From Archangium sp. (GTDB lineage: Bacteria > Myxococcota > Myxococcia > Myxococcales > Myxococcaceae): a stretch of 64,000 nucleotides of DNA. Numbering within the stretch: position 1 is the stretch's first letter; the number at the start of each line of letters is the position of its first letter. Position numbers and translations under genes: made by a program. Location: the NCBI GenBank assembly GCA_047600485.1, contig JASGKS010000001.1, positions 6,592,259 through 6,656,258 on the forward strand. Direction: 5' to 3'. The notes below the pieces were generated by a model, which did not search any database, was not told where the DNA came from, and saw only the letters and a program-made list of their open reading frames with translations. Of the stretch, positions 367 to 60,420 are shown in pieces.

Positions 367-1266
367 ATGACCAACACGAACTCGAAGACGAAGACGGCGG
401 TGGTGACCGGCGGTACCTCGGGGCTCGGTGAAGCGGCGACGCTGGCCCTCGCGCAGGCGGGCTGGCGGGTGCTGATCATCGGCCGAGACGCACAACGCGG
501 TGGAGACGTCGCGCGCAAGGCAGGCAACGGCAGCGAGTTCCTGAACGCCGACCTGTTCTCGCTGAACGACGTTCGCAGGCTGGCGGGCGAGATTGCGCGG
601 AGGGCTCCGGCGCTCGACCTGCTGGTGAACAATGCGGGCGGCGTCTTCAGTGCCGGCCCCGCGACCATCGACGGCCTGGAGCGCACCTTCGCGCTCAACG
701 TCGCTGCGCCGCACGTGCTCACCGAGGCGTTGCTCCCGCAGCTGACCGCCGCGAAGGGCCGCGTCATCAACATCGTCACCGGCATTCAGAACGGGTTCTC
801 GGCAAAGCTCGAGCAACTCATCGGCGCGAAGGCGACCGGCGGCATGTTCGGCTACGTGCGCAACAAGCTCGCGCTGCTCACCCTCACCCGCGCGCAGCAG
901 CAGAAATACGGCAGCCGTGGAGTGACGTTCGTCGCGCTGCACCCGGGCATCATTCCGCTCACGCGTTTCGGCACCACGATGACGGGCTTCAACCCGTTCA
1001 CCACCATCGGGCCGTTCTTCGCGAAGTTGTTCCGCTTCGGCGACACGGCGGACACGGCGGCCAAGCGCTACGTCGCGGCGGCCACCGAAGAGGTCGAGGG
1101 CGGCGGCTACTATTACGAGGGGAAGTTGCGGCCCGCTCCGAAGCAGGCGCTCGAGCAGGGCTTCGTCGATTCCATCTGGAAGCTGGTCAATGAGCTTCCC
1201 CTCTCCCGCGAGGGAGAGGGTCAGGGTGAGGGTGAAACAAACGAAGCAAGCGCAGCACACGGCTGA
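367..1266 (+). CDS. Short-chain dehydrogenase/reductase (SDR) family oxidoreductase
   Basis: TGGTSGLG Rossmann motif and NNAG motif. The last ~20 aa (LSREGEGQGEGE...) are encoded by the palindromic repeat, so the C-terminus is probably modified by the repeat insertion. Confidence 0.85.
   Translation: MTNTNSKTKTAVVTGGTSGLGEAATLALAQAGWRVLIIGRDAQRGGDVARKAGNGSEFLNADLFSLNDVRRLAGEIARRAPALDLLVNNAGGVFSAGPATIDGLERTFALNVAAPHVLTEALLPQLTAAKGRVINIVTGIQNGFSAKLEQLIGAKATGGMFGYVRNKLALLTLTRAQQQKYGSRGVTFVALHPGIIPLTRFGTTMTGFNPFTTIGPFFAKLFRFGDTADTAAKRYVAAATEEVEGGGYYYEGKLRPAPKQALEQGFVDSIWKLVNELPLSREGEGQGEGETNEASAAHG
1198..1238. repeat. Palindromic repeat element copy (CCCTCTCCC-GCGA-GGGAGAGGG + GGGTGAGGGTGAAAC)
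   Basis: Perfect 9-bp hairpin arms followed by a G-rich tail. It lies between the convergent SDR and kinase genes. Confidence 0.8.
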
Positions 1267-1297
1267 GCCACGAGGTCTCGAGTCCGTTCTCGCGGGC

Positions 1298-2809
1298 TCA
1301 GAGCTTCAGCTTCAGCGCCGTGGTCTTGCCGGGTTTGATTTCGACCTCGATGGTGGTGCGCAGCTTCCGCTCGTCGTTGATGAGCAGCAGCCGGTGTTTC
1401 CCCGCCGGCAACGACACGTTCGTCAGCGGCGTCTCACCGAGGTTCTTCTTGCCGAAGTAGACGTTCGACCACGGCGAGGTGACGAGCGAGAGCTTCCCCT
1501 TCGCCTTCGGCTTCGCGGCCTTCTTGCCCGGGCCCGCGTCGACCACGAGGTCGTCGGGCAGCTCATCGTCTTCTTCCACCGCGAGCACCGGAGCACCGGC
1601 ATCGACCACCACCGGCGCGACAGGCTCAGGAGCCGGCGGCGGCGGCTCGGGCGGAACGTTCTTCACCAGCGGCTCAGGCGCCTTCACTTCCGCGCGAGGC
1701 CACATCGCGAACGCCAGCGCGCTCAACCCCAGCACCACCAGGCCCGCGACCCCGGCGATGAGCGCACCGCGCCGGCGACCACGAGGCGTGCGCGTGACGG
1801 TCGAGACGCGCGAGTTCTGCACGACGGGAAAGCCACCCGAGACCGACGTCGGCACCTTGCGCGACTCCGGCGGAAACGTGGCCTGCATGAAGGTCGCCAG
1901 CGCTTCGCTCGACGGCAGCGTCTGCGAGATGGTCTGCAGGTACGCGGTCAACGTGTCGCGCACCTCGGCCATCGACGCGTAGCGACCGTCAGGCTCGCGC
2001 GACATCATCTTCGCGACGATGGCGCTCACCTCTTCGGGAACGCTCGGCTCGCGCTGGTGCGGCGTCTCGTACGGTTCACTCTTCGTCGCCACGAGACGGA
2101 ACAGGTCCATCTCCTTGAGCGGCGGATACATGCGGGTGTGCGTGAGCATCTCGAACAGCGTCACGCCGAGCGCGAATTGATCAGCCCGCGCGTCGATCAA
2201 CTCTCCGCGCGCCTGCTCGGGCGGCATGTACGAGAGCTTGCCGCGCAGCTGCCCCGCCTCGGTCGCGTTGGAGCGCGTCGCCGCCTTCGCGATGCCGAAG
2301 TCGAGCAGCTTCGGTACGCCCTCGTACGTCACCATCAGGTTCTGCGGAGACACGTCGCGGTGAATGATGTTGAGCGGCCGCCCCGCGTCGTCGACCCGGG
2401 TGTGCGCGTAGTGAAGCGCGTCGGCCGCATCGCGAACGATCTTCACCGCCAGCTCGACCGGCAGCCGCACGTTGGCGCGCGTCACGGCGCGCATGAGGTG
2501 CTGCACCGTCTGGCCGTCGATGAACTCCATCGCCACGTAGAAGCTCTCGTCGCGTTCCCCGAGCTCGAACACCTGCGCGATGTGAGGGTGCGAGAGCCCC
2601 GCCATCAACCGCGCCTCGTCGAGGAACATCGCGACGAACTGCGGCTGTTCCGCGAGCGTGCCGGTCATGCGCTTCAACGCGATGCGCTTTTGAAAGCCCT
2701 GCGGGCCGTCGAGCTTGGCGAGCCACACCTCGGCCATGCCGCCCACCGCGATGGGGCTGATCAGCGTGTACTGGCCGAAGCGCTGATTGAGCTGAAACGG
2801 CACCGCCAT
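1298..2809 (-). CDS. Ser/Thr protein kinase with C-terminal PEGA domain
   Basis: GxGxxA loop (VGGMAEV), AxK, HRDVSPQN catalytic loop, DFG and PPE motifs. There is a central TM helix and a C-terminal PEGA-like module (SPWSNVYFGKKNLGETPL...GKHRLLL). Confidence 0.9.
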   Translation of the reverse strand: MAVPFQLNQRFGQYTLISPIAVGGMAEVWLAKLDGPQGFQKRIALKRMTGTLAEQPQFVAMFLDEARLMAGLSHPHIAQVFELGERDESFYVAMEFIDGQTVQHLMRAVTRANVRLPVELAVKIVRDAADALHYAHTRVDDAGRPLNIIHRDVSPQNLMVTYEGVPKLLDFGIAKAATRSNATEAGQLRGKLSYMPPEQARGELIDARADQFALGVTLFEMLTHTRMYPPLKEMDLFRLVATKSEPYETPHQREPSVPEEVSAIVAKMMSREPDGRYASMAEVRDTLTAYLQTISQTLPSSEALATFMQATFPPESRKVPTSVSGGFPVVQNSRVSTVTRTPRGRRRGALIAGVAGLVVLGLSALAFAMWPRAEVKAPEPLVKNVPPEPPPPAPEPVAPVVVDAGAPVLAVEEDDELPDDLVVDAGPGKKAAKPKAKGKLSLVTSPWSNVYFGKKNLGETPLTNVSLPAGKHRLLLINDERKLRTTIEVEIKPGKTTALKLKL

Positions 2810-2859
2810 CGAGCAAAAGCGTAGCCCACCCCGGAGCGCACTGGAGGATACTGACCCTC

Positions 2860-3825
2860 GTGTTCACCGCGGTGCTCCTGCTCACGCTGACCGCTGCGCC
2901 GCCGGAGCTGCGCAAGGCCACGCAGGCGCTCGACGACTTCCGCTACGACGAAGCGTTGAAGCTGCTGCCGCAGGAAGGCGCGATTCAGAACTACGAACGC
3001 GCCGAGCTGACGGAGTGGTTCTCGACGTCCGCGCTCGCGCTGCTCAACCTGAAGCGAGAGAACGAGGCGACGCGGCGCTTCCTGCAGCTCTTCAGCTTCG
3101 CTCCGGAGTGGGTGCTGCCCGACCAGTACGGACCGCGCGTGCAGACGCTGGTGGCGAAGACGCGCGCCGACGCCGCTCGCAACGGCGTGGTGAGCGTGCG
3201 CTTCGAGGGCGGCCTGCTGCGCACCACCAGTGACTCGCTCGGCCTCGCGTCTGCTCTCGCCGTGTCGTGGCGCGTGAAGGACGGCGTCGTCGAGCGCGCG
3301 TTGCTCGAGCTCAAACCCGCGCAGCAACCACCGTGGCCGCGCGGCACCGCCGTCGAAGCGTGGGCTCGCGTGGTCGGACTCTCCGGCTCGACGCTCGCGA
3401 CGTGGGGCAGCGAGAACGAGCCGGTGCACCTCGAGCCGATGACGGTGCAGGTGAGCGGGAGGGAGGCTCCGGTCGCGACGTCGGGCACCGGCTTGCGCGC
3501 GCCCGGCTTCATCGGCCTTGGTGCGCTCGGTGGAGCAGCGGTGAGCGCGGTGCTGGGCATCGGCTTCGCGCTCGGTTCGCAAGATGCGCAACGCGCGCTC
3601 GGCGGCGTGACGCGCGACATGGACGGCCGCATCACGTCACTCACGCAGCGCGACGCGTTCGCGCTCGATGCGCGCGCGCGCAGTGACGCGACCGCCGCGG
3701 GAGTGCTCTTCACCGTCGCGGGCGTGCTCGCTGCGGGCGGCGTCGGGCTGTTGCTCTTCGATCGACTCACCGTGGTGCCCACGCCCGGTGGCGTGGCCAT
3801 GGTGCTGCGCACGGAGTCGCCATGA
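2860..3825 (+). CDS. Hypothetical membrane protein
   Basis: GTG start with a GGAGGA SD 10 nt upstream. C-terminal hydrophobic segments. The stop overlaps the next gene start (ATGA). Confidence 0.5.
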   Translation: MFTAVLLLTLTAAPPELRKATQALDDFRYDEALKLLPQEGAIQNYERAELTEWFSTSALALLNLKRENEATRRFLQLFSFAPEWVLPDQYGPRVQTLVAKTRADAARNGVVSVRFEGGLLRTTSDSLGLASALAVSWRVKDGVVERALLELKPAQQPPWPRGTAVEAWARVVGLSGSTLATWGSENEPVHLEPMTVQVSGREAPVATSGTGLRAPGFIGLGALGGAAVSAVLGIGFALGSQDAQRALGGVTRDMDGRITSLTQRDAFALDARARSDATAAGVLFTVAGVLAAGGVGLLLFDRLTVVPTPGGVAMVLRTESP

Positions 3826-4919
3826 AGCGGCTGCTCTTCATCGCCTCGTGTGCCGCGGTCATCGTGGCGTGCGGGAAAGTCGTCTTCACCAACGAGCGCT
3901 TCGCGTGCGCGACGAGCGGCGACTGCGCGGACGGTTTCAGCTGCGTGTCGGGAGAGTGCTCGACCGGTTCCGCAGAAGACGGCGGCGCTGGCGGTGGCGG
4001 TGCGACCGGCGGCGGTGGAGGCGTCACCGGTGGTGGCGGCGGCGGCGGCGCGACTGGTGGAGGTGGCACCGATGGCGGTCGTCCCGCGGGCACGGTTTGC
4101 ACCACCACTGCGCAGTGCCTCGGCGGGCTCACGTGCGTCGACGGCGTGTGCTGCCTGAGCGCGTGCAACTCGGCGTGCGACACGTGCAACCAGGCGAGCA
4201 ACCCGGGCACGTGTCTGCCCTCACCCGCCGGCACCGCGGTCGCGTCGTGCAACGGCTTCGCGTGTAACGGCAGCAGCGCAACGTGCCCGACCACCTGCTC
4301 CTCCGACGCCGGAGTCAACGCGTGCAGCCCCGGCTTCTCCTGCCTCGCGCCGAGCTGCAGCCGCTGCTGGTCGGGCGTCACCAATTCCTTCTCGATGGCG
4401 AGCGACCCCGCGTGGACGCAGTCGGGCACCAACACGGCGAGCGGCACGCTGTCGGTCTCGATTCAGAGCCGCGCGAACATGGCGGTGTCCGCGTCAGCCA
4501 TCTCGACCGACACGCTGCCGCTGAATGACTGCGGCGTGAGCTTCGCGCTGGTCGCCGCTCCGGCGGCCGTCGCGGGTTACCAGGGCCACGCGGTGCTGCG
4601 CGCTTCGGGAGGAACTCAGCGCCCGTCGTTCGGTTGGCGGTTCGACACGCGCGGGCTCGTCGCCGACTGGGCGCTCTCCGACGGAGGCACCGGAGAGCAG
4701 GTCATCACCACCACTCCGCCGATGTGGCTGCGCATCGAGCACAGCGGCGGTCAGGTGCGGTGGCGCACCACGAGCGGCACGACGTTCAACACGGTGCAGA
4801 CGGTTCAAGTCTCCGAGCGACTCGACGCGATGAAGCTCGAGTTCAACGCGTCCTTCCCCGCGCAGTCGGGCAACAACACCGTCACCTACGAAATCGACTC
4901 GCTCAACCTCGGGCCGTGA
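3822..4919 (+). CDS. Secreted Cys-rich lipoprotein with Gly-rich linker
   Basis: Signal peptide plus lipobox (IVAC|G), a poly-Gly/Thr linker, a Cys-rich module and a C-terminal beta-rich domain. Confidence 0.65.
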   Translation: MKRLLFIASCAAVIVACGKVVFTNERFACATSGDCADGFSCVSGECSTGSAEDGGAGGGGATGGGGGVTGGGGGGGATGGGGTDGGRPAGTVCTTTAQCLGGLTCVDGVCCLSACNSACDTCNQASNPGTCLPSPAGTAVASCNGFACNGSSATCPTTCSSDAGVNACSPGFSCLAPSCSRCWSGVTNSFSMASDPAWTQSGTNTASGTLSVSIQSRANMAVSASAISTDTLPLNDCGVSFALVAAPAAVAGYQGHAVLRASGGTQRPSFGWRFDTRGLVADWALSDGGTGEQVITTTPPMWLRIEHSGGQVRWRTTSGTTFNTVQTVQVSERLDAMKLEFNASFPAQSGNNTVTYEIDSLNLGP

Positions 4920-5658
4920 CGGCCGGCGTTTCTTTCGCGCGGCGGCGCAGGTTGAGCAGCTCGACGAGCACCGAGAAGCCCATCGCGAAATAGATGTAGC
5001 CCTTGCTGATGTGCTGGCCGAGCGCTTCACCGACGAGGAGCGCGCCGATGAGCAACAGGAACGCGAGCGCCAGCACCTTCATCGACGGGTGCTTCTCGAC
5101 GAACGCGCCGATGCTGCCGGCGAACGCCATCATCGAGGTCACCGCGACCAGCATCGCGACCACCATCACCGGCACGTCTTCCACCATGCCGACCGCGGTG
5201 GCGATGGAGTCGATGCTGAACACCAGGTCGATGCCGATGATCTGCGCGATGGCGCCGAACGCGCTGTTCGCCGATTTCTTCGCGGCGTCTTCGCCGGCCT
5301 TCGCCTCGGCGTGGTCTTCCTTGTTCTCGACCTTCTCGTAGATCTCCCGCGTCGCCTTCCACATCAGGAACAGGCCACCCGCGAGGAGGATGAGGTGCTT
5401 CCACGTCACGCCGTGATCTCCGAAATGAAAGAGCACGGTCGTCAGATGCATGATCCAGCTGATGCCGAACAACATGCCGACGCGGAGCACGAGCGCGGCG
5501 CCGACTCCGATGCGCGTGATGCTGCGGCGTTGATCAGCCGGGAGCTTTCCCGTCAGCACGCTGATGAACACCAGGTTGTCGATGCCCAGCACCACCTCCA
5601 TCGCCGTGAGGCTGATGAGTGCGGTCCAGGTTTCAGGTTTGAGGAACGTCTCGATCAT
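4903..5658 (-). CDS. TerC-family integral membrane protein
   Basis: Paired TerC motifs (GIDNLVFIS ... GIDLVFSIDSI) and about 7 TM helices. Start chosen at MIETFLK; the ORF extends to 5727, but the extension looks non-native. Confidence 0.8.
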   Translation of the reverse strand: MIETFLKPETWTALISLTAMEVVLGIDNLVFISVLTGKLPADQRRSITRIGVGAALVLRVGMLFGISWIMHLTTVLFHFGDHGVTWKHLILLAGGLFLMWKATREIYEKVENKEDHAEAKAGEDAAKKSANSAFGAIAQIIGIDLVFSIDSIATAVGMVEDVPVMVVAMLVAVTSMMAFAGSIGAFVEKHPSMKVLALAFLLLIGALLVGEALGQHISKGYIYFAMGFSVLVELLNLRRRAKETPAVTARG

Positions 5659-5769
5659 CGGGCCAGATTCGTAACGCACTGGTCCCATCGCGCAATCCAA
5701 CTGGTTGAGCCCCGCACAGACCGTCACTTCTGCGCTTGCGCTCGATCGACAGGCTTGAGGTTTTCGCGC

Positions 5770-7182
5770 TCACCTCGTGAACGTGCAACGACACACGAAG
5801 TGACCGCACACGCCGCACGCGAAACCGTCGTTCAGCGCCGGAAGCCCGCACGCTGAGCAGCGCCGCATCGTCAGCTTGAGACGAAAACCGGTCGAGTGGG
5901 TGTCGGGGAGCGACGCTTCAGTGTCGACCGTCGGGTGCTTGCAGGGACCCTTTCCGTACGTGCGTGTGCGCACGACGTATTTGAGGCCCTTGCACGAGGT
6001 ACAGGTCTGGCGCGGCTCGCACTGGAAGGTACCCCCCGTGAGGTAGTTGTCGCCGACACCGGTTCCGTTGCATTCGGTGCACGTCGTCTCGCCCTTCTCG
6101 TCGCACTGCGTGCACGGTGGACCAAGCAGCACGGCAAACGGGAGCGTGCGCTCGCCCGAAGTCATGCGCGCCCGGGGAAAGCGCGCGTCTTCGATCGGCG
6201 AGGTGACGTCGTCGAGCGGCGCGTCGAACGGAGCGAACGTCCACCACGTGCCCGCCGGGTGCTCGAGCTTCAACGACTCGCGAAGCGCGTCGGCGCGAGC
6301 TCCCAACCGCTCACTCGCGTCGACTTCGCGGGCAGCCGCCGCGCGCATCCCCTTGCGAAGGAGTGCCGCGGCCCAGTCGAGGCGCATCTGTGGCTCCCGA
6401 GGTGATGCCTTCGCCGACCTCCAGCATTCGTCCGCCGCGGGATCAGGCGCGGTCGCGGGACGATCGGGCTTCGCGCCGCGATCGAGGAGCAGGTCGACGA
6501 GAACCTGATGCCCGTTCTCTTCCGCGACGGTGAGCGCGGTGCCGAAGAAGTGACGGAAGTTCGGGTCGGCTCCGCGATCGAGCAGCTCGCGCGCGGCGTC
6601 GACGTCTCCCACTTTGCAGACCGCGGTCAGGATGCTCGCGCCCGTGCACTGCGCGTTCGGATCGATGCCACGCTTCACGAGGAGCGCGAGGATCTGACGC
6701 CCGAGGTCCTGACGGTGCAACGCCGTGGAGATGACGTCCGTTTCCTTGAGGCTCGCGCCGCGGTCGAGCACCAACTCGATCATCTCGAGCGAGCTCTCCC
6801 GACACGCTCGCTCCAGCGGCCCGAGCCGGCTGTATTGCCCGCGATGGTTCAGGTTCGAGCCGGCGTCGAGCAGGAACCGCGCGGCCTCGACCCGGCTGTT
6901 CTCGATGGCGGCGAAGAGCGCGGTGTCACCGGGTGGATCGATGACGGCGCCCTCGGCGAGCAGCGAACGCAGCTTCGCGACGTCGCCCGACGCGGCCGCC
7001 TCGATGAGGCTCTTCGCTCGTGCGCGCTGCTTCCACGGCAACTCGCTGGTCGGTCTCACGTTTCCGGCAAGGCGTTCCGCGGTCAGCACGACCAGGTCTT
7101 CGACGCTCACCATGTTCCGACGCACGGCCTCGACCTCGTCGCGATCGATCGAATCCGGCTCCGCGGTTGGAAGGACTCGCAT
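5770..7182 (-). CDS. Ankyrin-repeat protein with C-terminal DnaJ-type CxxCxGxG zinc-finger module
   Basis: About 5 ankyrin repeats (DTALFAAIENSRVEAARFLLDAGSNLN...), then CTQCDEKG / CTECNGTG / CTSCKGLK / CSACG / CGVCG. The 5' 91 codons of the long ORF are low-complexity; the start is uncertain (7182 or 7113). Confidence 0.65.
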   Translation of the reverse strand: MRVLPTAEPDSIDRDEVEAVRRNMVSVEDLVVLTAERLAGNVRPTSELPWKQRARAKSLIEAAASGDVAKLRSLLAEGAVIDPPGDTALFAAIENSRVEAARFLLDAGSNLNHRGQYSRLGPLERACRESSLEMIELVLDRGASLKETDVISTALHRQDLGRQILALLVKRGIDPNAQCTGASILTAVCKVGDVDAARELLDRGADPNFRHFFGTALTVAEENGHQVLVDLLLDRGAKPDRPATAPDPAADECWRSAKASPREPQMRLDWAAALLRKGMRAAAAREVDASERLGARADALRESLKLEHPAGTWWTFAPFDAPLDDVTSPIEDARFPRARMTSGERTLPFAVLLGPPCTQCDEKGETTCTECNGTGVGDNYLTGGTFQCEPRQTCTSCKGLKYVVRTRTYGKGPCKHPTVDTEASLPDTHSTGFRLKLTMRRCSACGLPALNDGFACGVCGHFVCRCTFTR

Positions 7183-7657
7183 ACTCGGCTTCCGCGCTGC
7201 TGAGGTTCGCGGTTGCACGCTCGAGCAGCAGAGCGCCGAGCGAATCACCGAGGCGTGTCGCGACGCCCCCGTCCGGAAAGTCGCCCGACACCCCGAAGAC
7301 GGTCGACCGTCCGGCGGCCAGCTCGTCGCTGCGGTAGCAAACGTACTGTGGGCCGCGTGAAGCGTAGACCCTGACCAGCGCGATGAGTCGGGGGTCGATG
7401 GCCGCGATTCGCTTCTCGGCCCTGTCCTGGTACGGGAGGTCCTCGCGCGGACCACCTCGAGCCAGTGGCCTGAGAAGCTCCCACGGAGTCAGCAGCGAGT
7501 CCGACGGCTCCGCGTCGTCGACTTCCATGTCTGCGATGACGAACGCTTCGACGGGAAACGGAACGCCGTAGCAGGCGAGCAGAATCTCCTCGTTCGACCG
7601 ACCCGCTTCGAGCATCGAGCGAGCCAGCTTCGCCTTCGATGCGAGATCCGCCGGCAT
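6926..7657 (-). CDS. Hypothetical protein; 3' boundary uncertain, overlaps the ankyrin gene
   Basis: Its ATG overlaps the upstream stop (TGATG), suggesting translational coupling. The first ~165 aa look protein-like and the tail is low-complexity, so a frameshift or fusion with the ankyrin gene is possible. Confidence 0.4.
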   Translation of the reverse strand: MPADLASKAKLARSMLEAGRSNEEILLACYGVPFPVEAFVIADMEVDDAEPSDSLLTPWELLRPLARGGPREDLPYQDRAEKRIAAIDPRLIALVRVYASRGPQYVCYRSDELAAGRSTVFGVSGDFPDGGVATRLGDSLGALLLERATANLSSAEAEYASPSNRGAGFDRSRRGRGRASEHGERRRPGRADRGTPCRKRETDQRVAVEAARTSEEPHRGGRVGRRREAAFAARRGRRHRSTR

Positions 7658-7959
7658 CAGTACCGCGGCGCTCCGGTGGTGCAGTCGAGTTCGACGCGCG
7701 TTCCGCCGACGCTCACTTCGGCGCTCGTGCTCGAGCGACTGACCTGGGCTTTTCCAGCTCGCGTCGAGACGTCGCTCAGCTTTCCGCTGAAGCCCGACAG
7801 ACACGCCGAGCGCGCGAGCCACATCGCCTGCGTGCGCGCGCTCGCGTCACGTCGCCCGGCGTCAGCGATGGAGAAGCGCGTGAGGAACACCGTCACGAGC
7901 GTGATGGCGACCACGATCGCCACCATCACCAGCAACAACACATGGCCGCGGCGTTTCAT
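7657..7959 (-). CDS. Small membrane protein in the pilus/T2SS-like operon
   Basis: N-terminal hydrophobic helix (MKRRGHVLLLVMVAIVVAITLVTVFL). Its ATG overlaps the upstream stop (ATGA). Confidence 0.5.
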   Translation of the reverse strand: MKRRGHVLLLVMVAIVVAITLVTVFLTRFSIADAGRRDASARTQAMWLARSACLSGFSGKLSDVSTRAGKAQVSRSSTSAEVSVGGTRVELDCTTGAPRY

Positions 7960-8327
7960 GGAATGAACACCTCGAAGGTCTGCGCCTGCGTCTCTGAATC
8001 GCGGAGCGTGAAGGCCACCGTCGCGCCGCTCGCGTTCTGTTCGAACTTCGTGACGTGACGCGCGAGCACCAACTCGGTGCCGCACGCCGAGCGCACGACC
8101 TTGTCTCCGTCGAGGCGATACGTCACCGCGCATTCCGGACGGGCCACGCGGTCGAGCTCACGCTGCTCCGAGAGCGTGCGAATCGACGACGCCGCTTCGA
8201 GCTGCCACAGCGCGCGGTCGTGACGCGCCTGCAACGTGCGGATGAAGAGGTAGCAGGCGGGAACGAGCAACGCCGAGATGGACAGACAGATGGCCAGCTC
8301 GACCGTGGTGAACGCGCGGCGCTTCAT
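7956..8327 (-). CDS. Minor pseudopilin (prepilin-type N-terminal methylation domain)
   Basis: MKRRA|FTTVELAICL prepilin class III motif with Glu at +5. Confidence 0.75.
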   Translation of the reverse strand: MKRRAFTTVELAICLSISALLVPACYLFIRTLQARHDRALWQLEAASSIRTLSEQRELDRVARPECAVTYRLDGDKVVRSACGTELVLARHVTKFEQNASGATVAFTLRDSETQAQTFEVFIP

Positions 8328-9807: not shown

Positions 9808-9827
9808 GAGTGCCTCGAGAGAAAGAT

Positions 9828-10023
9828 CCCCTCTCCCTGTGAAACGGGGAGAGGGTCAGGGTGAGGGGCGGAGTCGAGCATCGCGGGCAGAGGACGGATC
9901 AGCCCCTCACCCCAGCCCTCTCCACGCGTCGCAAGGAGAGGGAGAGCGGCAGTCGTGCACGGAGTCAGAGGACGCATCAGCCCCTCACCCCAGCCCTCTC
10001 CCCGCTTCGCAAGGAGAGGGAGG
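9828..10023. repeat. Cluster of three palindromic repeat copies (one forward, two reverse, with ~78-bp tandem duplication)
   Basis: cccctctccctgtgaaacggggagagggtcagggtgagggg, then 2x cccctcaccccagccctctcc...aaggagaggga. It sits inside the operon between the ATPase and the GspF-like genes. Confidence 0.8.
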
Positions 10024-10851: not shown

Positions 10852-10891
10852 GCGACCTCCGTAGTTTCACCCTCACCCCGACCGTTGGCGC

Positions 10892-12938: not shown

Positions 12939-12960
12939 GAGTGTTCCCCTCCGAGCAAAC

Positions 12961-13001
12961 CCCCTCTCCCGCGAGGGAGAGGGTTGGGGTGAGGGTGGAC
13001 C
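12961..13001. repeat. Palindromic repeat element copy
   Basis: cccctctcccgcgagggagagggttggggtgagggtggacc, in the 5' UTR/promoter region of the pilin operon. Confidence 0.8.
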
Positions 13002-13020
13002 ATTTCGGTCCGTTTTGCAC

Positions 13021-14790: not shown

Positions 14791-14867
14791 GCGGGCGGCG
14801 TGCTTGTCACACGTGCGCATGGCTGATCAATCCCACGCGCGAAAAGCCCCGCGTTCGACGAAAACTC

Positions 14868-17707: not shown

Positions 17708-17708
17708 G

Positions 17709-21974: not shown

Positions 21975-22014
21975 CTCCCTCTCCCCCGCAGGGGAGAGGG
22001 TCGGGGAGAGGGCC
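21975..22014. repeat. Palindromic repeat; left arm of a perfect 40-bp inverted-repeat pair
   Basis: ctccctctcccccgcaggggagagggtcggggagagggcc is identical to the reverse complement of 22805-22846. Confidence 0.85.
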
Positions 22015-22055
22015 CATCGAGCCACGGACTTTCGCGCGCGCAGAACACGAGTAGG

Positions 22056-22786: not shown

Positions 22787-22804
22787 CGACGGCTCGGCTC
22801 GACG

Positions 22805-22846
22805 GGCCCTCTCCCCGACCCTCTCCCCTGCGGGGGAGAGGGAGAG
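22805..22846. repeat. Palindromic repeat; right arm of the 40-bp inverted-repeat pair
   Basis: Reverse complement equals 21975-22014 exactly. Confidence 0.85.
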
Positions 22847-43779: not shown

Positions 43780-43790
43780 ACCAAACGTCC

Positions 43791-43884
43791 CCCCTCTCCC
43801 GCGAGGGAGAGGGTTGGGGTGAGGGTGGACCTGAAGTTCAGTCCGGGTCGCGCTTTCTAGATACAGTTTCACCCTCACCCCGAC
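43791..43884. repeat. Composite palindromic element (full left half plus truncated inverted right half)
   Basis: cccctctcccgcgagggagagggttggggtgagggtggacc ...34 bp... gtttcaccctcaccccgac. Same architecture as 60341-60420. Confidence 0.8.
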
Positions 43885-46163: not shown

Positions 46164-46168
46164 CTCCG

Positions 46169-46199
46169 CGAAGCGGGGAGAGGGCCGGGGTGAGGGGCA
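46169..46199. repeat. Palindromic repeat (half copy); direct repeat of 47044-47071
   Basis: aagcggggagagggccggggtgagggg is identical at both sites. Confidence 0.75.
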
Positions 46200-47027: not shown

Positions 47028-47028
47028 C

Positions 47029-47072
47029 TCCCTCTCCCTGCAAAGCGGGGAGAGGGCCGGGGTGAGGGGCCG
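47029..47072. repeat. Palindromic repeat element copy
   Basis: ctccctctccctgcaaagcggggagagggccggggtgaggggcc. Confidence 0.8.
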
Positions 47073-53045: not shown

Positions 53046-53776
53046 TCACTGCCTCCTTCAGAAATCGCGAGAAGCGCAGAGATGATTGCCCGACGAGCCC
53101 CTCGAAACGAGTCGATCGATCGAAGATATGTTCGTGCGCTCTCGTCCGCGGCATCATCGCTGACAATCTTTACACACGCAAAAGGAATGCCGAACCGAGA
53201 ACACGTCTGCGCAACGGCAGACGCCTCCATGTCGAGTGCAATTGCGTCCAATGAGATTCCCGCCCGAATGCTCTCACGGGCCGCAGTTGAAGCGACGAAC
53301 TTGTCGCCAGACAGGAGCAGTCCTCCGTACGAAATCGAGGCGACATTCGACAATGAAGACTTAACAATCTGCGCGAGCTTGATGTTTGCGCTAAACACAA
53401 GATCGCGATGATCGGACATTGCCTGATATTGAAGAGTGCGCTCTCCAGGGCGCGCCAGCCACGTTACGGAAGGAGAGATTCCGCCGAAGTCATGTTGGGC
53501 AAACGTCGTAGGAATCAGAATCGAGCCTACCTGGTGCTTTTCCGTGAGCGCCGCGCAGTATCCGAAATTCAGAACACATCGAAGATCAGAAGCCCCAGCC
53601 GCGAATGCGATGGCTGAGGCCGCTGCAACCTTGCCAACGCCGCTCAGCACAATGCACGACCGGGTCGGAATTGCATCTCGCTCGGGCGCGGTACGAAGAT
53701 CAACAACGCGAATCGATCCGGGCAGGTCCACCCCATCGAGTTCCTCGCGCATGGCCACCTGAATTATGGAGGTCAT
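53036..53776 (-). CDS. PNP_UDP-family nucleosidase (MTA/SAH-nucleosidase-like)
   Basis: ALDMEASAVAQTC...FACVKIVSD matches the MTAN EMEGAA...RxISD core. Confidence 0.7.
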   Translation of the reverse strand: MTSIIQVAMREELDGVDLPGSIRVVDLRTAPERDAIPTRSCIVLSGVGKVAAASAIAFAAGASDLRCVLNFGYCAALTEKHQVGSILIPTTFAQHDFGGISPSVTWLARPGERTLQYQAMSDHRDLVFSANIKLAQIVKSSLSNVASISYGGLLLSGDKFVASTAARESIRAGISLDAIALDMEASAVAQTCSRFGIPFACVKIVSDDAADESARTYLRSIDSFRGARRAIISALLAISEGGSEWK

Positions 53777-55890
53777 TGTTCAAATCTGAGAATCTCGGGC
53801 GGCAGGTCTTGCGCGACGCGCAGGCCGTACCGTTGTGCCGCCTTGATATTGACACCGCGAAGCGGCGAGTCGCATCGCAGAATCGGTATCTCATAAAGAG
53901 CCTTCTTGCCCATTAGCCATGGAACGACAATTTGCTCAGCAGCGCGACGTCCCGAGTCGATGTCGTTGTTCGCGACAAGCGCGACCGCCCCCCGCGTCAT
54001 GTCGGCCTCGTTACCTGCAACAAGCGCCACGGCAAGCGTGCGTGACAGTTGTGCAAAGTTGGCGTTGACGTAGTACCATCCAAACACGACGTCAATCTCG
54101 CGCGGCACAGCTTGAGCGTGTTCAATAGGAGTCACGGCGATGCCGGACTCATGAGAGAACTTGGCGATTCGATCGCGCACGATCACGTCTTGCGCGATTT
54201 GTGCATCATAAAGATACCCGAGTCGTGCATCAGGGAACGTTGTCGACAAGAAACGGAGCGCATTTTCAGGTGTCGCATAGGAGACGCCAGCGATGTTTCC
54301 GCGCCTCTTGTCGCCGTCCATGGACGAGACAAGCCCTGACGCTACAGGGTCGGTCACGCCAGCAAACACGATCGGCAGCTTGTCGCGATGTAATCGCAAT
54401 GCATCGACACTAACTTGAGTACCAATTGTGAAGAGGAGTGCTGGCGGTCTCTCAAACCGCTCGAGCAGTTCTCGGACGGCGCCTTGATTTGCGGCGAAGT
54501 CGCGGTCGCTGCTTCCTGGTGAGCCGATCGTGCGCTCGAAACGAGGTGCCAGTCCAGTGGGCGCCAGCAATTCGCGGAGACGGCTCTTGAACGCATCTTC
54601 GATCGTGCGTGCGTACTCTGCGTCTCCGTTGAGCACAACCGCAACATCGACAATCTTCGCCCCATCGTTCTTTGCGGGCTGGTCGGATCGCGCAGCTGCG
54701 ACCCCCGCGGCAAACACGATCAAGAATGGGACGAGAATCGTTAAAGATGCGGCAATCAGTATGCGAATCAGCCGGAAGCGATGCGGCCATTTCCAGCGCG
54801 CGACAGCTGCTTCACGAAGCGCGTTCACGCGATTTACGGCTTCGGCATACTCCGCGGCCGTCGGTTCTTTGTCTTTGAGAAGGGGCAGGCCGTGCGGTTC
54901 TAAGTGGAGAAAGCGCAAAACGGCAAGTCTGCCGGACTCCGCCATGAGTTCTTTATCCAACTGGCCAATCGAGAAGTCGACCGTTCCTATTGGGGCCGTG
55001 TTGATTCGAACAATGCAATGCCGGTTCGCCTCAATCGCAAGGTTCTCATCCTGCCCTAGAAATATTCTAAATACGTGTTTGAGAACGGTCGTCGCCGATA
55101 GCGTTGCATCTGACGGACGATCGGGCTTCGATGCATCGTGCAAATACAACCCGAGAACATTGGCGTGGGCCCATTCGCGGCGAGCTTGATCGAGTGCGAA
55201 GTTGGCAACAAGCCCACCGTCGAACAGTATGTTTTTTCCGACTACCTGTGGTTCAAAGAAACCCGGGATTGCGACGCTGCACCTTACGGCGTGCTCGACG
55301 TCGTCCTCAGGTGAACCGAAAAGGACGGTGTTCGGCGTGCCCGTGCTTGAGGCGACGACTAACGCCCCGTGTTTCAAGCTCCGGAACTTCGCCCCGAGGT
55401 AGTCATCCGGCTCAATTCGTTCACGGCCATTCGAATGCGGGCGCCAGCGCAATGCATGTTCGATAAAGCGACCAATCGGCTTCGTGCTGAAAGCGAATCC
55501 CCTGAAAAGAGGTACAAGGATTCTAAACCAAATGACTAACTCAAAAAAAAGATAGGCAATGGCGCGGAGCACGAGACGCCATCGAGGCGGTCGCGGTCTT
55601 TCACTCTCTCTCCATGGAGGTTGGGACCACTCCGGTTCCCAGCTTTCAACCAGAAAATCGGAGAATCGTTGCGCGTTAATGATTGCGGCTGTCGTCTTCG
55701 CATCGTAACCCATTGCTAGGACAATCGCCGTCATCGCACCTGCAGAGGTACCGGCAAATTGTTCGAAACGGACATCAACACGATTGGTCAGCTCCAGAAG
55801 TGCCCCAGCAAATGCGGCGCCTTTTACACCGCCACCATTGAACACAAGCCCAAACTTGGCTCCACGCTCGATCGTCGTTTCACGCTCCAC
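53773..55890 (-). CDS. Patatin-like phospholipase fused via TM helix to ABC-type substrate-binding-like (PF04392-like) domain
   Basis: GGGVKG oxyanion, GTSAG serine and DGG aspartate. TM helix LIRILIAASLTILVPFLIVFAAGV. The C-terminal PIVFAGVTDPVASGLVSSMD...GNIAGVS matches the ABC_sub_bind core. Confidence 0.8.
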   Translation of the reverse strand: MERETTIERGAKFGLVFNGGGVKGAAFAGALLELTNRVDVRFEQFAGTSAGAMTAIVLAMGYDAKTTAAIINAQRFSDFLVESWEPEWSQPPWRESERPRPPRWRLVLRAIAYLFFELVIWFRILVPLFRGFAFSTKPIGRFIEHALRWRPHSNGRERIEPDDYLGAKFRSLKHGALVVASSTGTPNTVLFGSPEDDVEHAVRCSVAIPGFFEPQVVGKNILFDGGLVANFALDQARREWAHANVLGLYLHDASKPDRPSDATLSATTVLKHVFRIFLGQDENLAIEANRHCIVRINTAPIGTVDFSIGQLDKELMAESGRLAVLRFLHLEPHGLPLLKDKEPTAAEYAEAVNRVNALREAAVARWKWPHRFRLIRILIAASLTILVPFLIVFAAGVAAARSDQPAKNDGAKIVDVAVVLNGDAEYARTIEDAFKSRLRELLAPTGLAPRFERTIGSPGSSDRDFAANQGAVRELLERFERPPALLFTIGTQVSVDALRLHRDKLPIVFAGVTDPVASGLVSSMDGDKRRGNIAGVSYATPENALRFLSTTFPDARLGYLYDAQIAQDVIVRDRIAKFSHESGIAVTPIEHAQAVPREIDVVFGWYYVNANFAQLSRTLAVALVAGNEADMTRGAVALVANNDIDSGRRAAEQIVVPWLMGKKALYEIPILRCDSPLRGVNIKAAQRYGLRVAQDLPPEILRFEQ

Positions 55891-59233: not shown

Positions 59234-59779
59234 ATGGCCGCGACGTACGAACCTGCGAGTCTTTACAAAGATGCCATCGTCCACCGTCAGACGTCGCTGC
59301 CTTCCACGCGACAGTACTGGGCGTGGGACGTGATGAGTCGAATCGACCTCGAGTACTACTGGGTCGAAGCGACGACGTCGGACTTCCAGAGTTCCACGGA
59401 CGAATCGGGAGACATCACCCTCATCAAGCTCACCGGCAACGTGGGCGCGACCGTGTTCGTCACGCGCAACGACTCCAACCTGTGGGCGCCGCAGCCGTCC
59501 ACGCTCTTCTACCCGGGCTCCGGCAGCTCGGAGAATCGCGGCATCTTGCTCGTCACCGCCGCGTTCTTCCCGGACCACGGGCTGGAGCGCGCGAACTATG
59601 CAGATGGTGGCGGCAGCAAGTACCCGCGCCAGCTCGGCGAGCTCTTCGTCGCCGCGATGCGGGTGATGCGCACGCTGCGTGACACCACACCGCGGGCCGT
59701 CGACGAGGCCACCAGCCAACTCGACGTCGAGAGCCGCGAGCTCTTGAAGGGGTTCCTCGCCGGCGGCAAGGAGCGCTGA
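59234..59779 (+). CDS. Hypothetical protein
   Basis: Starts 1 nt after the EBP stop (TGAATG), so likely co-transcribed. Confidence 0.5.
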   Translation: MAATYEPASLYKDAIVHRQTSLPSTRQYWAWDVMSRIDLEYYWVEATTSDFQSSTDESGDITLIKLTGNVGATVFVTRNDSNLWAPQPSTLFYPGSGSSENRGILLVTAAFFPDHGLERANYADGGGSKYPRQLGELFVAAMRVMRTLRDTTPRAVDEATSQLDVESRELLKGFLAGGKER

Positions 59780-59782
59780 GCG

Positions 59783-60340
59783 ATGGACGCCAAGATCACC
59801 CTATTGTCCGCGCAGGACGAGCAGCACCTGCAGGAAATCGCGTCGCGCTTTCATCAGCAGACCGAGGCGACCCCTTCGTATGCGACCGCGCTCATCACCT
59901 CGGCGATGGAAGCGCCGAACCCGCTCGCCGGAGTCTTGAAGTTCTCGGTGCGTCGGAGTGCCGGCCGTTTGTTGCGAGCTGATTTCGTCGGGCACGCGCT
60001 GCTCGAGCGGCCGACGCGAAAGAACGCTCCGATGAGCTACGGCATGAGCACCACCAACGCGCGGACCATCACGCTCGGCGTGTCGCGCGGGAAGTTCGTG
60101 GGGCTCGAGCTGCTCGACGCGCTGTCGCACGCGTACCCGGTGCCCGATTTGGTGGTGCGCTTTCTGCTCTGCGATGGGGCGAATTTTCCGCGCGAGTTCT
60201 TGAGCGCGTGTGTCGAGCGGCTGCGCAAGTTCAGCCCGCTCGCGGTGCTGCAGCTGAGCAAGGGCGGCGTACACGCGGGACATTTCGGTCCCGGTGGTTT
60301 TCAGGACAAGCACGCAGATCGCCTCGTCCCGTTTCCCTGA
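59783..60340 (+). CDS. Hypothetical protein
   Basis: Third gene of the putative EBP operon. Followed by a repeat element. Confidence 0.5.
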   Translation: MDAKITLLSAQDEQHLQEIASRFHQQTEATPSYATALITSAMEAPNPLAGVLKFSVRRSAGRLLRADFVGHALLERPTRKNAPMSYGMSTTNARTITLGVSRGKFVGLELLDALSHAYPVPDLVVRFLLCDGANFPREFLSACVERLRKFSPLAVLQLSKGGVHAGHFGPGGFQDKHADRLVPFP

Positions 60341-60420
60341 GAGGGTTGGGGTGAGGGTGGACCGCTTCTTTGACTGCGTTTCACCCTCACCCCGACCCTC
60401 TCCCTCGCGGGAGAGGGGGA
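60341..60420. repeat. Composite palindromic element (truncated left half plus full inverted right half)
   Basis: gagggttggggtgagggtggacc ...21 bp... gtttcaccctcaccccgaccctctccctcgcgggagaggg. Confidence 0.8.

What the first reader, a model, noticed from the sequence alone, without database searches (positions are those of the whole stretch)
1198..60420. Dispersed palindromic repeat family (at least 10 copies in 64 kb) with MITE-like composite forms
The core is CCCTCTCCC-N4-GGGAGAGGG (a perfect 9-bp stem) followed by [TC][TC]GGGGTGAGGG[TG]G. Copies lie at 1198, 9828-10023 (three copies), 12961, 21975, 22805, 43791, 46169, 47029 and 60341. At 43791-43884 and 60341-60420 a left and an inverted right half flank a ~20-35-bp spacer, as in terminal inverted repeats of a miniature element. 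Copies sit at 3' ends, at divergent promoters and inside the pilus operon. Several are read into ORFs: the SDR C-terminus LSREGEGQGEGE, the N-terminal PLPRGRGG of the 42583 ORF, and the ORF at 12941. An identical 27-bp direct repeat flanks the gene at 46257-47027.
Basis: seen in the sequence. Interest (0 to 1): 0.6.

Follow-up and report, generated by a model that had tools for sequence, protein, structure and literature searches.

The report
BoxC-type triplex repeats, recently expanded
The window holds about fourteen copies of a small G/C-rich hairpin-plus-tail repeat that is the long-known BoxC / PIT / "TMECO" triplex motif of E. coli and many other bacteria, here freshly multiplied in a myxobacterial genome; in other bacteria the same kind of unit forms the inverted ends of tiny elements carrying a DUF559 nuclease gene, which hints at how it moves.

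Summary
In detail: 8 strict, 10 generic and about 14 total units (with truncated ones) sit at 10 intergenic loci, where shuffles predict 0. The family is not new. It fits letter for letter the published TMECO pattern CCCTCNCCC-N3-6-GGGNGAGGG-N3-GGGNGAGGG (BoxC, PIT element, HPGQ). That motif was reported 3610 times in 262 genomes, including inverted pairs.

What is new is local. The source is a 9.4-Mb "Archangium sp." MAG whose density (125 strict units/Mb) exceeds any published count. At 9 of the 10 loci, relatives with 60-93% identical proteins have an empty orthologous site. One insertion is 216 bp inside a pilus-type operon whose genes overlap in a relative (ATGA). Another replaced the tail-coding end of an SDR gene. 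This looks like a recent burst of a non-autonomous mobile element, not a terminator or conserved regulator.

An unplanned lead followed. In 13 of 20 loci chosen only for encoding a DUF559 (YcjD-like, Vsr-fold) nuclease, such units lie within 300 bp of the gene. They often form 35-114-bp terminal inverted repeats around it. E. coli ycjD also has one. No DUF559 gene lies in this window, so the link is unproven here.

The parts
1198..1238 (+). Full unit, subfamily S1 (loop GCGA). It lies inside the 3' end of the SDR ORF 367-1266 and encodes ...LPLSREGEGQGEGE...
   Evidence: Homolog alignment and DNA alignment show it replaced the tail-coding segment present in relatives L012, L013 and L014.
9828..9869 (+). 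Full unit, subfamily S2 (9-nt loop). First of three units that fill the 216-bp gap between gene 10024-10851 and the T2SSE ATPase gene 8689-9807.
9902..9942 (-). Degenerate S2 unit in inverted orientation. It forms a tail-to-tail pair with the unit at 9828-9869.
   Evidence: The ssDNA fold of the pair is -40.4 kcal/mol, z -5.6.
9980..10020 (-). S2 unit in inverted orientation, starting 3 nt after the stop codon of gene 10024-10851 (read on the minus strand).
10864..10883 (-). Tail-only fragment (GTTTCACCCTCACCCCGACC) in the 40-bp gap between genes 10892-11677 and 10024-10851.
   Evidence: In relative L001 these two genes overlap (GTGATG).
12960..13001 (+). Full S1 unit between the LTD-domain gene (13021-14820, minus strand) and the prepilin-like gene (12507-12938, minus strand).
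   Evidence: It is 42/42 identical to 43790-43831.
21975..22015 (+). Full S3 unit (tail GGGGAGAGGG), 11 nt after the stop of gene 21018-21965.
   Evidence: The site is empty in L010 and L011.
22804..22844 (-). Full S3 unit, 41/41 identical to 21975-22015 but inverted. Together they bracket two small Cys-rich lipoprotein genes (22056-22475, 22472-22786).
43790..43831 (+). Full S1 unit between divergent genes 42583-43779 (minus) and 43887-46163 (plus). Left half of a composite.
43866..43884 (-). Tail-only fragment that pairs with the tail of unit 43790-43831. Right half of the composite.
   Evidence: (fold -26.2 kcal/mol, z -4.0)
46168..46198 (+). S2 unit lacking an intact 5' arm, starting directly after the stop codon of gene 43887-46163.
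   Evidence: The site is empty in L005.
47028..47070 (+). Full S2 unit between the convergent genes 46257-47027 and 47080-47475 (glyoxalase).
   Evidence: In L005 the two genes overlap by 8 bp and there is no repeat.
60331..60363 (+). S1 unit with an 11-bp internal hairpin deletion (CCCT|GAGAGGG). The deletion created the TGA that now ends ORF 59783-60340. Left half of a composite.
   Evidence: The deletion is read directly from the sequence.
60378..60417 (-). Full S1 unit, inverted. Right half of the composite, 26 nt upstream of gene 60443-63481.
   Evidence: (fold -31.1 kcal/mol, z -5.3)

Best explanation
The copies belong to the BoxC / PIT / TMECO family. Each unit has a 9-bp pyrimidine arm, a loop, the complementary purine arm, a 2-3-nt linker and a mirror-image G-rich arm. 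On single-stranded DNA this can fold into a hairpin, a purine-motif intrastrand triplex or a G-quadruplex.

In this genome the units behave as a non-autonomous mobile element that multiplied recently. Single units and tail-to-tail inverted pairs were inserted into very short intergenic spacers, mostly just after stop codons. Copies then decayed by hairpin deletion and truncation.

I infer that they are moved in trans by an enzyme encoded elsewhere in the 9.4-Mb genome. My candidate is a DUF559 (YcjD-like, Vsr-fold PD-(D/E)XK) nuclease, because in other bacteria such genes are bracketed by inverted repeats made of this kind of unit. The pairs in the window would then be the gene-less, MITE/REPIN-like form.

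Effects on the host look like by-products. A strongly structured 216-nt spacer now separates two pilus-operon genes that overlap in a relative. The C-terminal tail of an SDR was rewritten. Identical inverted copies offer substrates for recombination.

Shown here: family identity, excess over chance, intergenic placement, empty orthologous sites, subfamily structure, and the DUF559-unit association in other taxa. Inferred: the direction of events as insertion, mobilisation in trans, and the identity of the enzyme.
For: Family identity.
- The units match the published pattern and the Table 1 sequences of Holder et al. 2015.
- The 21-nt core GGGAGAGGGCCGGGGTGAGGG at 46176 and 47048 is identical to E. 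coli HPG2.
- A 47-nt unit aligns at 84-86% identity in 4468 of 5426 complete E. coli genomes, at unannotated sites.
- The variable base of the third arm is T or A in 143 of 144 strict units. This is what the T*A-T / A*A-T triplex rule requires.

Not chance: 0.00-0.01 copies are expected.

Recent gain.
- Syntenic loci of relatives lack the copies at 9 of the 10 loci.
- The ATPase gene and its upstream gene overlap (ATGA) in L001 and abut in L002, against 216 bp of repeats here.
- L005 (86% identical protein) is empty at 43.8, 46.17 and 47.03 kb.
- L010 and L011 are empty at 21.98 and 22.8 kb.
- L012, L013 and L014 (89-93%) are empty at 1.2 kb.
- Relatives carry 2 strict and 1 relaxed unit in 115.7 kb. 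The window carries 8 strict units in 64 kb.
- L002 has two units in the same LTD-pilin spacer but in the opposite orientation, which indicates an independent insertion.
- Copies within each subfamily are identical over 41-42 nt.

DUF559 link.
- Viral contigs L085 and L056 each have a DUF559 ORF between two units.
- E. coli ycjD has TMECO no. 9 lying 167 bp downstream.
- 13 of 20 plasmid/chromid loci picked only by DUF559 homology have a unit within 300 bp. 25 of 42 units fall in that 8.8% of the sequence (binomial p 2.6e-16).
- Terminal inverted repeats of 114 bp (111/114), 56 bp (55/56), about 62 bp, 35 bp and about 35 bp bracket the gene in Sinorhizobium, two Deinococcus, Qipengyuania and Sphingomonas.
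- The box sequence changes with lineage while the architecture stays the same.
- An independent survey found DUF559 genes 14-fold enriched among inverted-repeat-flanked 'programmed inversion' targets (PMC9881135).
Against: - No DUF559 gene, RAYT or other transposase lies in the window or in the relatives' loci. This rests on Pfam scans of about 50 genes and a profile search.
- The full source genome could not be reached, so copy number genome-wide and the presence of a cognate gene are untested.
- No clear target-site duplication was found. The only hint is CATGA on both sides of the 216-bp insert, and selection to keep both the stop and the start codon could explain that equally well.
- At 1.2 kb the repeat replaced sequence rather than simply inserting.
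- 7 of the 20 DUF559 loci have no detectable unit nearby.
- Unit orientation around DUF559 genes varies. Deinococcus has tails facing outward, whereas the window pairs have tails facing inward.
- Adjacency could instead mean that DUF559 genes home into the repeats, rather than move them.
- Published E. coli work found no association of the motif with transposons, phages or plasmids and no in-vivo triplex.
Confidence: 0.7

Rival explanations
1. The units are selected cis-regulatory RNA or DNA elements. They would act as transcription terminators, 3'-end mRNA stabilisers, or hairpin/G-quadruplex switches controlling neighbouring genes, as proposed for the E. coli HPGQ motifs.
For: Seven of the 10 loci have a unit that starts 0-12 nt after a stop codon, in the sense orientation of the upstream gene. 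Hairpins are stable, at -10 to -16 kcal/mol. The tail is a canonical four-run G4 motif. Kaplan et al. showed ion-dependent hairpin/G4 switching in vitro.
Against: There is no T/U tract, and no unit is flagged as terminator-like. Units also lie inside an operon upstream of its ATPase gene, between divergent genes and in both orientations. Orthologous sites are empty in relatives with 60-93% identical proteins, so no conserved regulation depends on them. Placement after stop codons is expected anyway, because the relatives' spacers are only 0-15 bp long. PIT elements showed no promoter or terminator activity in E. coli.
Confidence: 0.12
2. The units are REP/REPIN elements mobilised by a RAYT (IS200/IS605-type HUH tyrosine transposase).
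For: They are short intergenic palindromes. They occur singly and as inverted pairs with short spacers, as REPINs do. They show no target-site duplication, as expected for single-strand transposition.
Against: There is no conserved GTAG or CGTC tag next to the stem (criterion from PMC3733652). No Y1 transposase is present in the window. The conserved mirror-repeat third arm has no counterpart in REPs. Where a flanked gene is found in other taxa, it is DUF559 and not a RAYT.
Confidence: 0.08
3. The units are not mobile. They arise and spread by replication slippage, gene conversion or error-prone repair at non-B DNA, and persist as inducers of genome instability (the reading of Holder et al.).
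For: An 11-bp hairpin deletion is seen at 60331-60363. Truncated units occur at 10864, 43866 and 46168. A 3.6-kb presence/absence difference and other gene-order changes lie next to unit sites in relatives. E. coli TMECO loci are more variable than controls.
Against: Slippage or repair can delete copies. It does not explain how identical 41-42-nt sequences appear at new, unrelated sites 0.8-31 kb apart, nor how they land inside an operon junction that is a 4-bp overlap in a relative. It also does not explain the long terminal inverted repeats around DUF559 genes.
Confidence: 0.08
4. The direct and inverted copies mark gene cassettes (attC-like or composite-transposon boundaries) that carried in the genes they flank: 46257-47027, and 22056-22786.
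For: A 28-bp identical direct repeat flanks one gene. A 41-bp identical inverted repeat flanks a two-gene unit.
Against: L005 has the ortholog of 46257-47027 between the same neighbours without any repeat. L010 and L011 have both small lipoprotein genes in the same place without repeats. The genes therefore predate the repeats.
Confidence: 0.02

Closest known systems
BoxC (E. coli, 1990s) = PIT elements (Hoyne/Maher 2000) = TMECO intrastrand triplex motif (Holder et al. 2015, PMC4666352)
   Same: The three boxes are the same, with the same loop and linker lengths and the same T/A choice in the third arm. Both are strictly intergenic. Both occur singly and as tail-to-tail inverted pairs. Decay by small deletions that keep a hairpin is seen in both. 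The distribution is patchy and strain- or lineage-specific.
   Different: The host is a myxobacterium; Table S1 lists only one copy in M. xanthus. The local density of 125 strict units per Mb compares with about 30 per Mb for the richest published genome (143 copies in Enterobacter asburiae LF7a; the roughly 4.8-Mb genome size is from my own knowledge). The subfamilies are lineage-specific: the S1 34-mer has no exact match in 185,579 species genomes or in the JGI metagenomes. Copies also occur inside an operon and inside a coding 3' end.
HPGQ G-quadruplex-hairpin-duplex switch motifs HPG1/HPG2 (Kaplan et al. 2016, PMC5100583)
   Same: This is the same sequence described from the G4 point of view. 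The HPG2 core is 21/21 identical to two window copies.
   Different: That paper assumes a regulatory role. The empty orthologous sites found here argue against conserved regulation.
REP / REPIN elements with their RAYT transposases
   Same: The logic is the same: hundreds of short structured intergenic units, inverted pairs as the likely mobile form, and a single-copy gene flanked by its cognate units as the presumed mobilising enzyme.
   Different: There is no GTAG/CGTC tag and no HUH transposase. A third, mirror-repeat arm is present. The flanked gene found in other taxa is a PD-(D/E)XK DUF559 nuclease.
MITEs (miniature inverted-repeat transposable elements)
   Same: Short, non-coding, with inverted ends. 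They resemble a full-length element that has lost its gene.
   Different: No target-site duplication was demonstrated. The single unit, not only the pair, is dispersed. The putative full-length partner is about 0.7 kb and encodes a 110-135-aa nuclease, not a DDE transposase.
Rickettsia palindromic elements (in-frame insertion into genes; from my own knowledge)
   Same: One copy (1198-1238) is translated as part of a protein tail.
   Different: Here it is a single case at the variable C-terminus. All other copies are intergenic.

Membership tests
BoxC / PIT / TMECO | Sequence pattern 5'-CCCTCNCCC N3-6 GGGNGAGGG N3 GGGNGAGGG-3' (Holder et al. 2015) | tested here: met
   There are 6 exact matches with a loop of 3-8 and 8 with a loop of 3-10. 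Shuffles expect 0.00. Two S2 units have 9-nt loops, slightly beyond the published 3-6.
BoxC / PIT / TMECO | Class II purine-motif architecture: the third arm is a mirror of the purine arm with G*G, A*A or T*A triads | tested here: met
   A sequence-free detector with this rule recovers 10 window units. The free base of the third arm is T in 6 and A in 2 of the 8 strict window units, and T or A in 143 of 144 strict units overall.
BoxC / PIT / TMECO | Multiple dispersed, strictly intergenic copies with no strand bias | tested here: met
   All 10 loci lie between predicted genes; one extends an ORF's 3' end. Eight units lie on the plus strand and six on the minus strand.
BoxC / PIT / TMECO | Occurrence of closely spaced inverted (palindromic) pairs | tested here: met
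   Three pairs: 9828/9902, 43790/43866 and 60331/60378. Spacers are about 20-40 bp. Folds are -26 to -40 kcal/mol with z -4.0 to -5.6. E. coli has 5 such pairs.
[quoted passage not shown]
   This was shown for the E. coli sequences only. ViennaRNA does not model triplexes.
REP/REPIN-RAYT | Conserved GTAG or CGTC tetranucleotide at one end of the palindrome | tested here: not met
   The flanks of 12 aligned units show no conserved GTAG or CGTC.
REP/REPIN-RAYT | Cognate RAYT (Y1 HUH transposase) gene flanked by the repeats | tested here: inconclusive
   None was found in the 64-kb window. The remaining 9.36 Mb of the genome could not be searched.
MITE | Terminal inverted repeats enclosing a short non-coding core | tested here: met
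   The three composite forms meet this. Most copies, however, are single units.
MITE | Target-site duplication | tested here: inconclusive
   Comparisons of empty and filled sites show none at 46168, 47028 or 1198. CATGA occurs on both sides of the 216-bp insert at 9808-10023, which selection could also explain.
MITE | Related autonomous element with the same ends | tested here: inconclusive
   None was found in this window. In other taxa, DUF559 genes carry terminal inverted repeats built from this kind of unit.
Intrinsic terminator | G+C-rich hairpin followed by a T/U tract | tested here: not met
   The hairpin is followed by a G-rich arm. No unit appears among the terminator-like sites in 1-20000.
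Rfam RNA families | Score at or above the gathering threshold of any curated model | tested here: not met
   No matches anywhere in the window.

The most novel reading that the evidence does not exclude
BoxC/TMECO-type triplex units may be the cis-acting ends of a widespread and so far undescribed class of selfish elements. Their own gene would be the DUF559 (YcjD-like, Vsr-fold) nuclease. This would be a PD-(D/E)XK counterpart of the REP-RAYT partnership. The dispersed singles and inverted pairs, as in this window, would be its non-autonomous offspring. The myxobacterial MAG would have been caught during or soon after a burst, with near relatives still almost free of copies.
Probability: 0.4. 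Interest if true: 0.8.

Novelty: new member of a known kind. Interest (0 to 1): 0.5.

Why it matters
BoxC has been known since the 1990s and was re-described three times, as a PIT, TMECO and HPGQ motif. In the literature I could search, nobody has explained how one nearly invariant 35-nt sequence comes to be scattered through Proteobacteria, Cyanobacteria and now Myxococcota. This locus adds clean empty-site evidence that the units were gained recently and repeatedly. The source genome is closed, has a very high copy density, and has close relatives that largely lack the copies, which is a good setting for finding the responsible enzyme by comparison. The DUF559 association, if it holds, gives a concrete candidate. 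It would also suggest a function for a very common 'domain of unknown function', including E. coli YcjD. Practically, the units break assemblies (contig L012 ends in one), create false ORF extensions, and can rewrite protein tails.

Tried and rejected
**Searches that found nothing**
- Rfam at gathering thresholds gave no match.
- Reaching the source genome failed. The S1 34-mer has 0 exact matches in genome contigs and metagenome contigs. Exact-protein look-ups for two window proteins failed. Homolog tables show 100% matches labelled 'MAG ...
- The search for related loci in metagenomes with the anti-sigma-like protein returned nothing.

**Readings considered and rejected**
- Cassette or composite-transposon reading of the repeat-flanked genes: rejected by the repeat-free syntenic loci.
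- Terminator reading: rejected, because there is no T tract and copies lie inside an operon.
- RAYT/REP reading: no tag and no gene.
- A conserved 5' flank or target motif was sought. AAAC-like bases precede 4-5 units, but this is not consistent.
- DUF559 in the window or in relatives: none by tblastn or profile HMM.
- A literature link between DUF559/ycjD and BoxC: none found.
- PADLOC scan of the low-GC island: only a weak phospholipase-effector hit.

Full report

Reading the listed positions shows one common unit. It consists of a pyrimidine arm CCCTCTCCC, a loop of 4-9 nt, the complementary purine arm GGGAGAGGG, a 2-3-nt linker, and a second G-rich arm GGGGTGAGGG or GGGGAGAGGG.

Every stated position holds a copy. 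A further tail-only fragment lies at 10864-10883. Counting full, degenerate and truncated units gives 14 units at 10 loci.

Sequence is conserved well beyond the stem, and three subfamilies are visible:
- S1 has loop GCGA and tail ...GGGTG. Its members are 1198, 12960, 43790 and 60378. Two of them are 42/42 identical.
- S2 has a 9-nt loop and tail ...GGGGC. Its members are 9828, 9902, 9980, 46168 and 47028. Two of them share 28 identical bases.
- S3 has tail GGGGAGAGGG. Its members are 21975 and 22804, which are 41/41 identical in inverted orientation.

Neither is met within the window.

**2. What the family is**

A full-text search for the two box sequences led to Holder et al. 2015 (PMC4666352). 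Their 'TMECO' pattern is 5'-CCCTCNCCC N3-6 GGGNGAGGG N3 GGGNGAGGG-3'. It matches 6 window units exactly, and 8 if the loop may reach 10 nt, with 0.00 expected.

The same element was first called BoxC in E. coli. It was later called a potential intrastrand triplex (PIT) element, and then a G-quadruplex-hairpin-duplex switch (HPGQ). The HPG2 core GGGAGAGGGCCGGGGTGAGGG is 21/21 identical to window positions 46176-46196 and 47048-47068.

A 47-nt window unit aligns at 84-86% identity over 89-91% of its length in 4468 of 5426 complete E. coli genomes. No annotated feature lies under the matches.

Holder et al. counted 3610 copies in 262 genomes. These include Geobacter, with 42 copies, and one copy in Myxococcus xanthus. 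They also found five tail-to-tail inverted pairs in E. coli K-12. So the unit, its G-rich 'tail' (the third strand of a purine-motif triplex) and the composite forms are all already described.

The triplex rule holds in the sequences gathered here. Among 144 strict units (8 window, 2 relatives, 134 viral contigs), the free base of the third arm is T in 120, A in 23, C in 1 and G in none. Rfam has no model for the family.

**3. Source and context**

Two window proteins are 100% identical to NCBI entries 'MAG: hypothetical protein QM817_30245 / QM817_30145 [Archangium sp.]' on a 9,422,076-bp contig. The gene content fits a myxobacterium. It includes several Ser/Thr kinases (one with WD40 repeats, one with nSTAND1 and an FGE-sulfatase domain), a PEGA domain, an ECF sigma factor, Cys-rich secreted proteins and an MMPL transporter.

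All ten loci are intergenic:
- Three lie between convergent genes (1198, 22804, 47028).
- One lies between divergent genes (43790).
- Three lie between co-directional genes (21975, 46168, 60331).
- Three lie inside a pilus/T2SS-like operon. That operon encodes a prepilin-like protein, three unknown proteins, a T2SSE ATPase and a second prepilin-like protein.

**4. The ORF claims**

The SDR ORF 367-1266 does read through unit 1198-1238. Homologs are conserved up to ...WKLVNE and then carry unrelated 0-19-aa tails, whereas the window continues LPLSREGEGQGEGETNEASAAHG. At the DNA level, the relatives with 89-93% identical protein are collinear up to ...AACGAGC. From there the window has the repeat plus about 30 bp of unrelated sequence in place of their tail-coding segment.

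The '42583 ORF' begins at ATG 43779 with a signal peptide, and the L005 ortholog starts at the equivalent MF(R).... ORF 12941 has non-coding codon statistics and lies antisense to the LTD-domain gene. These two claims are artefacts.

**5. Gain versus conservation**

I fetched syntenic DNA from relatives in three ways: with the ATPase as query (L001-L003, 69-78% identical), through homologs of gene 46257-47027 (L005-L007, 86%), through the anti-sigma-like gene (L008-L011, 60-70%), and through the SDR (L012-L014, 89-93%).

| Window site | Situation in relatives |
|---|---|
| 9808-10023 (216 bp, three units) | Upstream gene's stop and ATPase start overlap (ATGA) in L001; genes abut in L002 |
| 10864 (40-bp gap with a tail fragment) | Stop/start overlap |
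| 43.8, 46.17 and 47.03 kb | L005 has no unit in 11.2 kb; alignments show insertions of about 35 bp and about 56 bp directly after stop codons |
| 21.98 and 22.8 kb | L010 and L011 carry the same two lipoprotein genes without units |
| 1.2 kb | L012, L013 and L014 are empty |
| LTD-pilin spacer (12960) | Empty in L001 and L003; L002 has two units in the opposite orientation, so an independent hit |

Thus 9 of the 10 loci are empty in at least one relative. No relative was available for the tenth locus (60331).

The relatives carry 2 strict and 1 relaxed unit in 115.7 kb. The window carries 8 strict units in 64 kb.

The simplest reading is a recent, lineage-specific burst of insertions. Decay then followed. 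One example is an exact 11-bp hairpin deletion at 60331-60363, which created the stop codon now used by ORF 59783-60340. Other examples are the 5'-truncated or tail-only copies.

The repeats around genes 46257-47027 and 22056-22786 do not mark imported cassettes, because those genes sit in the same places in relatives that have no repeats.

**6. Structure**

As single-stranded DNA, single units fold into the 9-12-bp hairpin at -10.6 to -16.1 kcal/mol. Inverted pairs fold into long stems that pair box with box, at -26 to -40 kcal/mol with z -4.0 to -5.6.

The 236-nt operon spacer folds as RNA at -130 kcal/mol with z -6.9. This means a junction that was translationally coupled in a relative has been replaced by a strongly structured spacer. 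No unit is followed by a T tract, and none is flagged as terminator-like.

**7. How does it move? An unplanned lead**

No transposase-like gene occurs among about 50 window genes.

I scanned IMG/VR with the strict pattern. It gave at least 120 contigs with G+C from 0.36 to 0.74, with invariant boxes and variable loops. Two contigs with paired units (L085, L056) turned out to encode a DUF559 protein between the units (Pfam E 1e-32 to 1e-35).

E. coli K-12's only annotated DUF559 gene in the region examined, ycjD, has TMECO no. 9 lying 167 bp downstream.

For an unbiased test I searched PLSDB by tblastn with a DUF559 domain. I fetched 20 taxonomically spread loci with 5 kb on each side. I then scanned them with a detector that knows only the architecture and no box sequence. 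The results were:
- 13 of the 20 loci have a unit within 300 bp of the gene.
- 25 of 42 units fall in that 8.8% of the sequence (binomial p 2.6e-16).
- Most of the remaining units belong to tandem arrays that begin next to the gene (Photobacterium, Neisseria).
- Only three isolated units occur elsewhere in about 184 kb.

The boxes differ by lineage but keep the pyrimidine arm, purine arm and mirror-arm design:
- Deinococcus: CCTCCCCC / GGGGGAGG / GGAGGGGG.
- Sphingomonads: CCCCTCCC / GGGAGGGG / GGGG[AT]GGG.
- Azospirillum: CCCTCCCCC / GGGGGAGGG / GGGTGGGGG.
- Rhizobia, enterobacteria and this window: CCCTCTCCC / GGGAGAGGG / GGGTGAGGG.

In five loci the gene is bracketed by long terminal inverted repeats that contain the units. 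They measure 114 bp (111/114 identical) in Sinorhizobium meliloti, 56 bp (55/56) and about 62 bp in two Deinococcus, 35 bp in Qipengyuania, and about 35 bp in Sphingomonas.

These genes sit as lone insertions inside otherwise ordinary gene clusters, for example paaD-DUF559-paaZ and yqeY-DUF559-dnaG-rpoD.

An independent survey found 'DUF559 domain-containing protein' 14-fold enriched among genes flanked by inverted repeats that were predicted to invert (PMC9881135).

The Vsr/DUF559 clade includes a group I intron homing endonuclease (PMC3424549). A Caulobacter DUF559 protein damages DNA in vivo (PMC12907096).

I found no paper connecting DUF559 or ycjD with BoxC. The library does not cover subscription journals, so this is not proof of novelty.

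**8. Limits of that lead for this finding**

Neither the window nor the relatives' loci contain a DUF559 gene, and the rest of the genome could not be read. Orientation around DUF559 genes is not uniform. Adjacency could mean that the gene homes into the repeats rather than moves them. No target-site duplication is established.

I therefore give high confidence to two statements: this is the BoxC/TMECO family, and it was gained recently by insertion. I give moderate confidence to mobilisation in trans. I give about 0.4 to DUF559 being the partner.

**9. Verdict**

The family is already described, so this is a new member (new host lineage, new subfamilies, unusually dense) of a known kind.

Its value lies in the clean insertion polymorphisms, and in the fact that this genome and its relatives, together with the DUF559 association, make the long-open question of BoxC mobility directly testable.

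Noticed in passing
L136-L155, L085, L056; E. coli NC_000913.3 1351205-1351760: DUF559 (YcjD-like) nuclease genes are flanked by triplex-motif units, often as 35-114-bp terminal inverted repeats. This holds across Alpha-, Beta- and Gammaproteobacteria, Deinococcota and a cyanobacterium. The genes sit as lone insertions inside ordinary operons.
   Followed up: yes
L010:2130-2240: A relative carries three tandem copies of a different, GTAG-containing REP-like repeat (CCGGCGAACGTAGCCGCAGGCGGAGACTCGCCGTAGCAAC). It lies in the spacer that holds a triplex unit in the window, so a different repeat family occupies the same niche.
   Followed up: no
window 51957-55890 (G+C 0.56 against 0.67 overall): A low-G+C island encodes an unknown 362-aa protein, a PNP_UDP_1 phosphorylase-fold protein and a patatin-like phospholipase fused to an ABC_sub_bind domain. 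This may be acquired or defence-like. PADLOC gives only a weak phospholipase-effector hit.
   Followed up: partly
window 1298-4900 compared with L012:1882-2520: In the closest relative (93% identical SDR), the SDR gene is followed by the TerC gene instead of the Ser/Thr kinase. A segment of about 3.6 kb is therefore present or absent exactly at the repeat-bearing junction. Contig L012 also ends in a unit (positions 1-39), which looks like an assembly break at a repeat.
   Followed up: partly
L008, L009 compared with window 20386-25455: Gene order around the ECF sigma / anti-sigma pair differs among relatives. The two small Cys-rich lipoprotein genes are inverted and on the other side of the pair in L009. 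An 896-aa gene is inserted in L008. Gene 22852-24048 is absent in L010.
   Followed up: partly
window 13120-13548 and 43538-43680: There are coding tandem repeats. A 21-bp period encodes a Gly-rich stretch in the LTD-domain protein. A 15-bp period encodes (DAGTP)n just after the signal peptide of gene 42583-43779.
   Followed up: no
window 16433-17374: Modules of about 105 bp are repeated and encode Cys-rich segments in the secreted proteins 16091-17752 and 17709-19475. No Pfam family matches beyond a weak conotoxin-like hit.
   Followed up: no
window 9800-10035 (minus strand): CATGA occurs on both sides of the 216-bp repeat insert. In L001 a single ATGA serves as the overlapping stop and start. 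This is either a 5-bp target duplication or the result of selection to keep both codons.
   Followed up: partly
L015-L134 (IMG/VR): The strict TMECO pattern occurs on at least 120 viral or proviral contigs with G+C from 0.36 to 0.74. The boxes are invariant and the loops vary. This is a possible route for spread between phyla, but host flanks in the proviral contigs were not excluded.
   Followed up: partly
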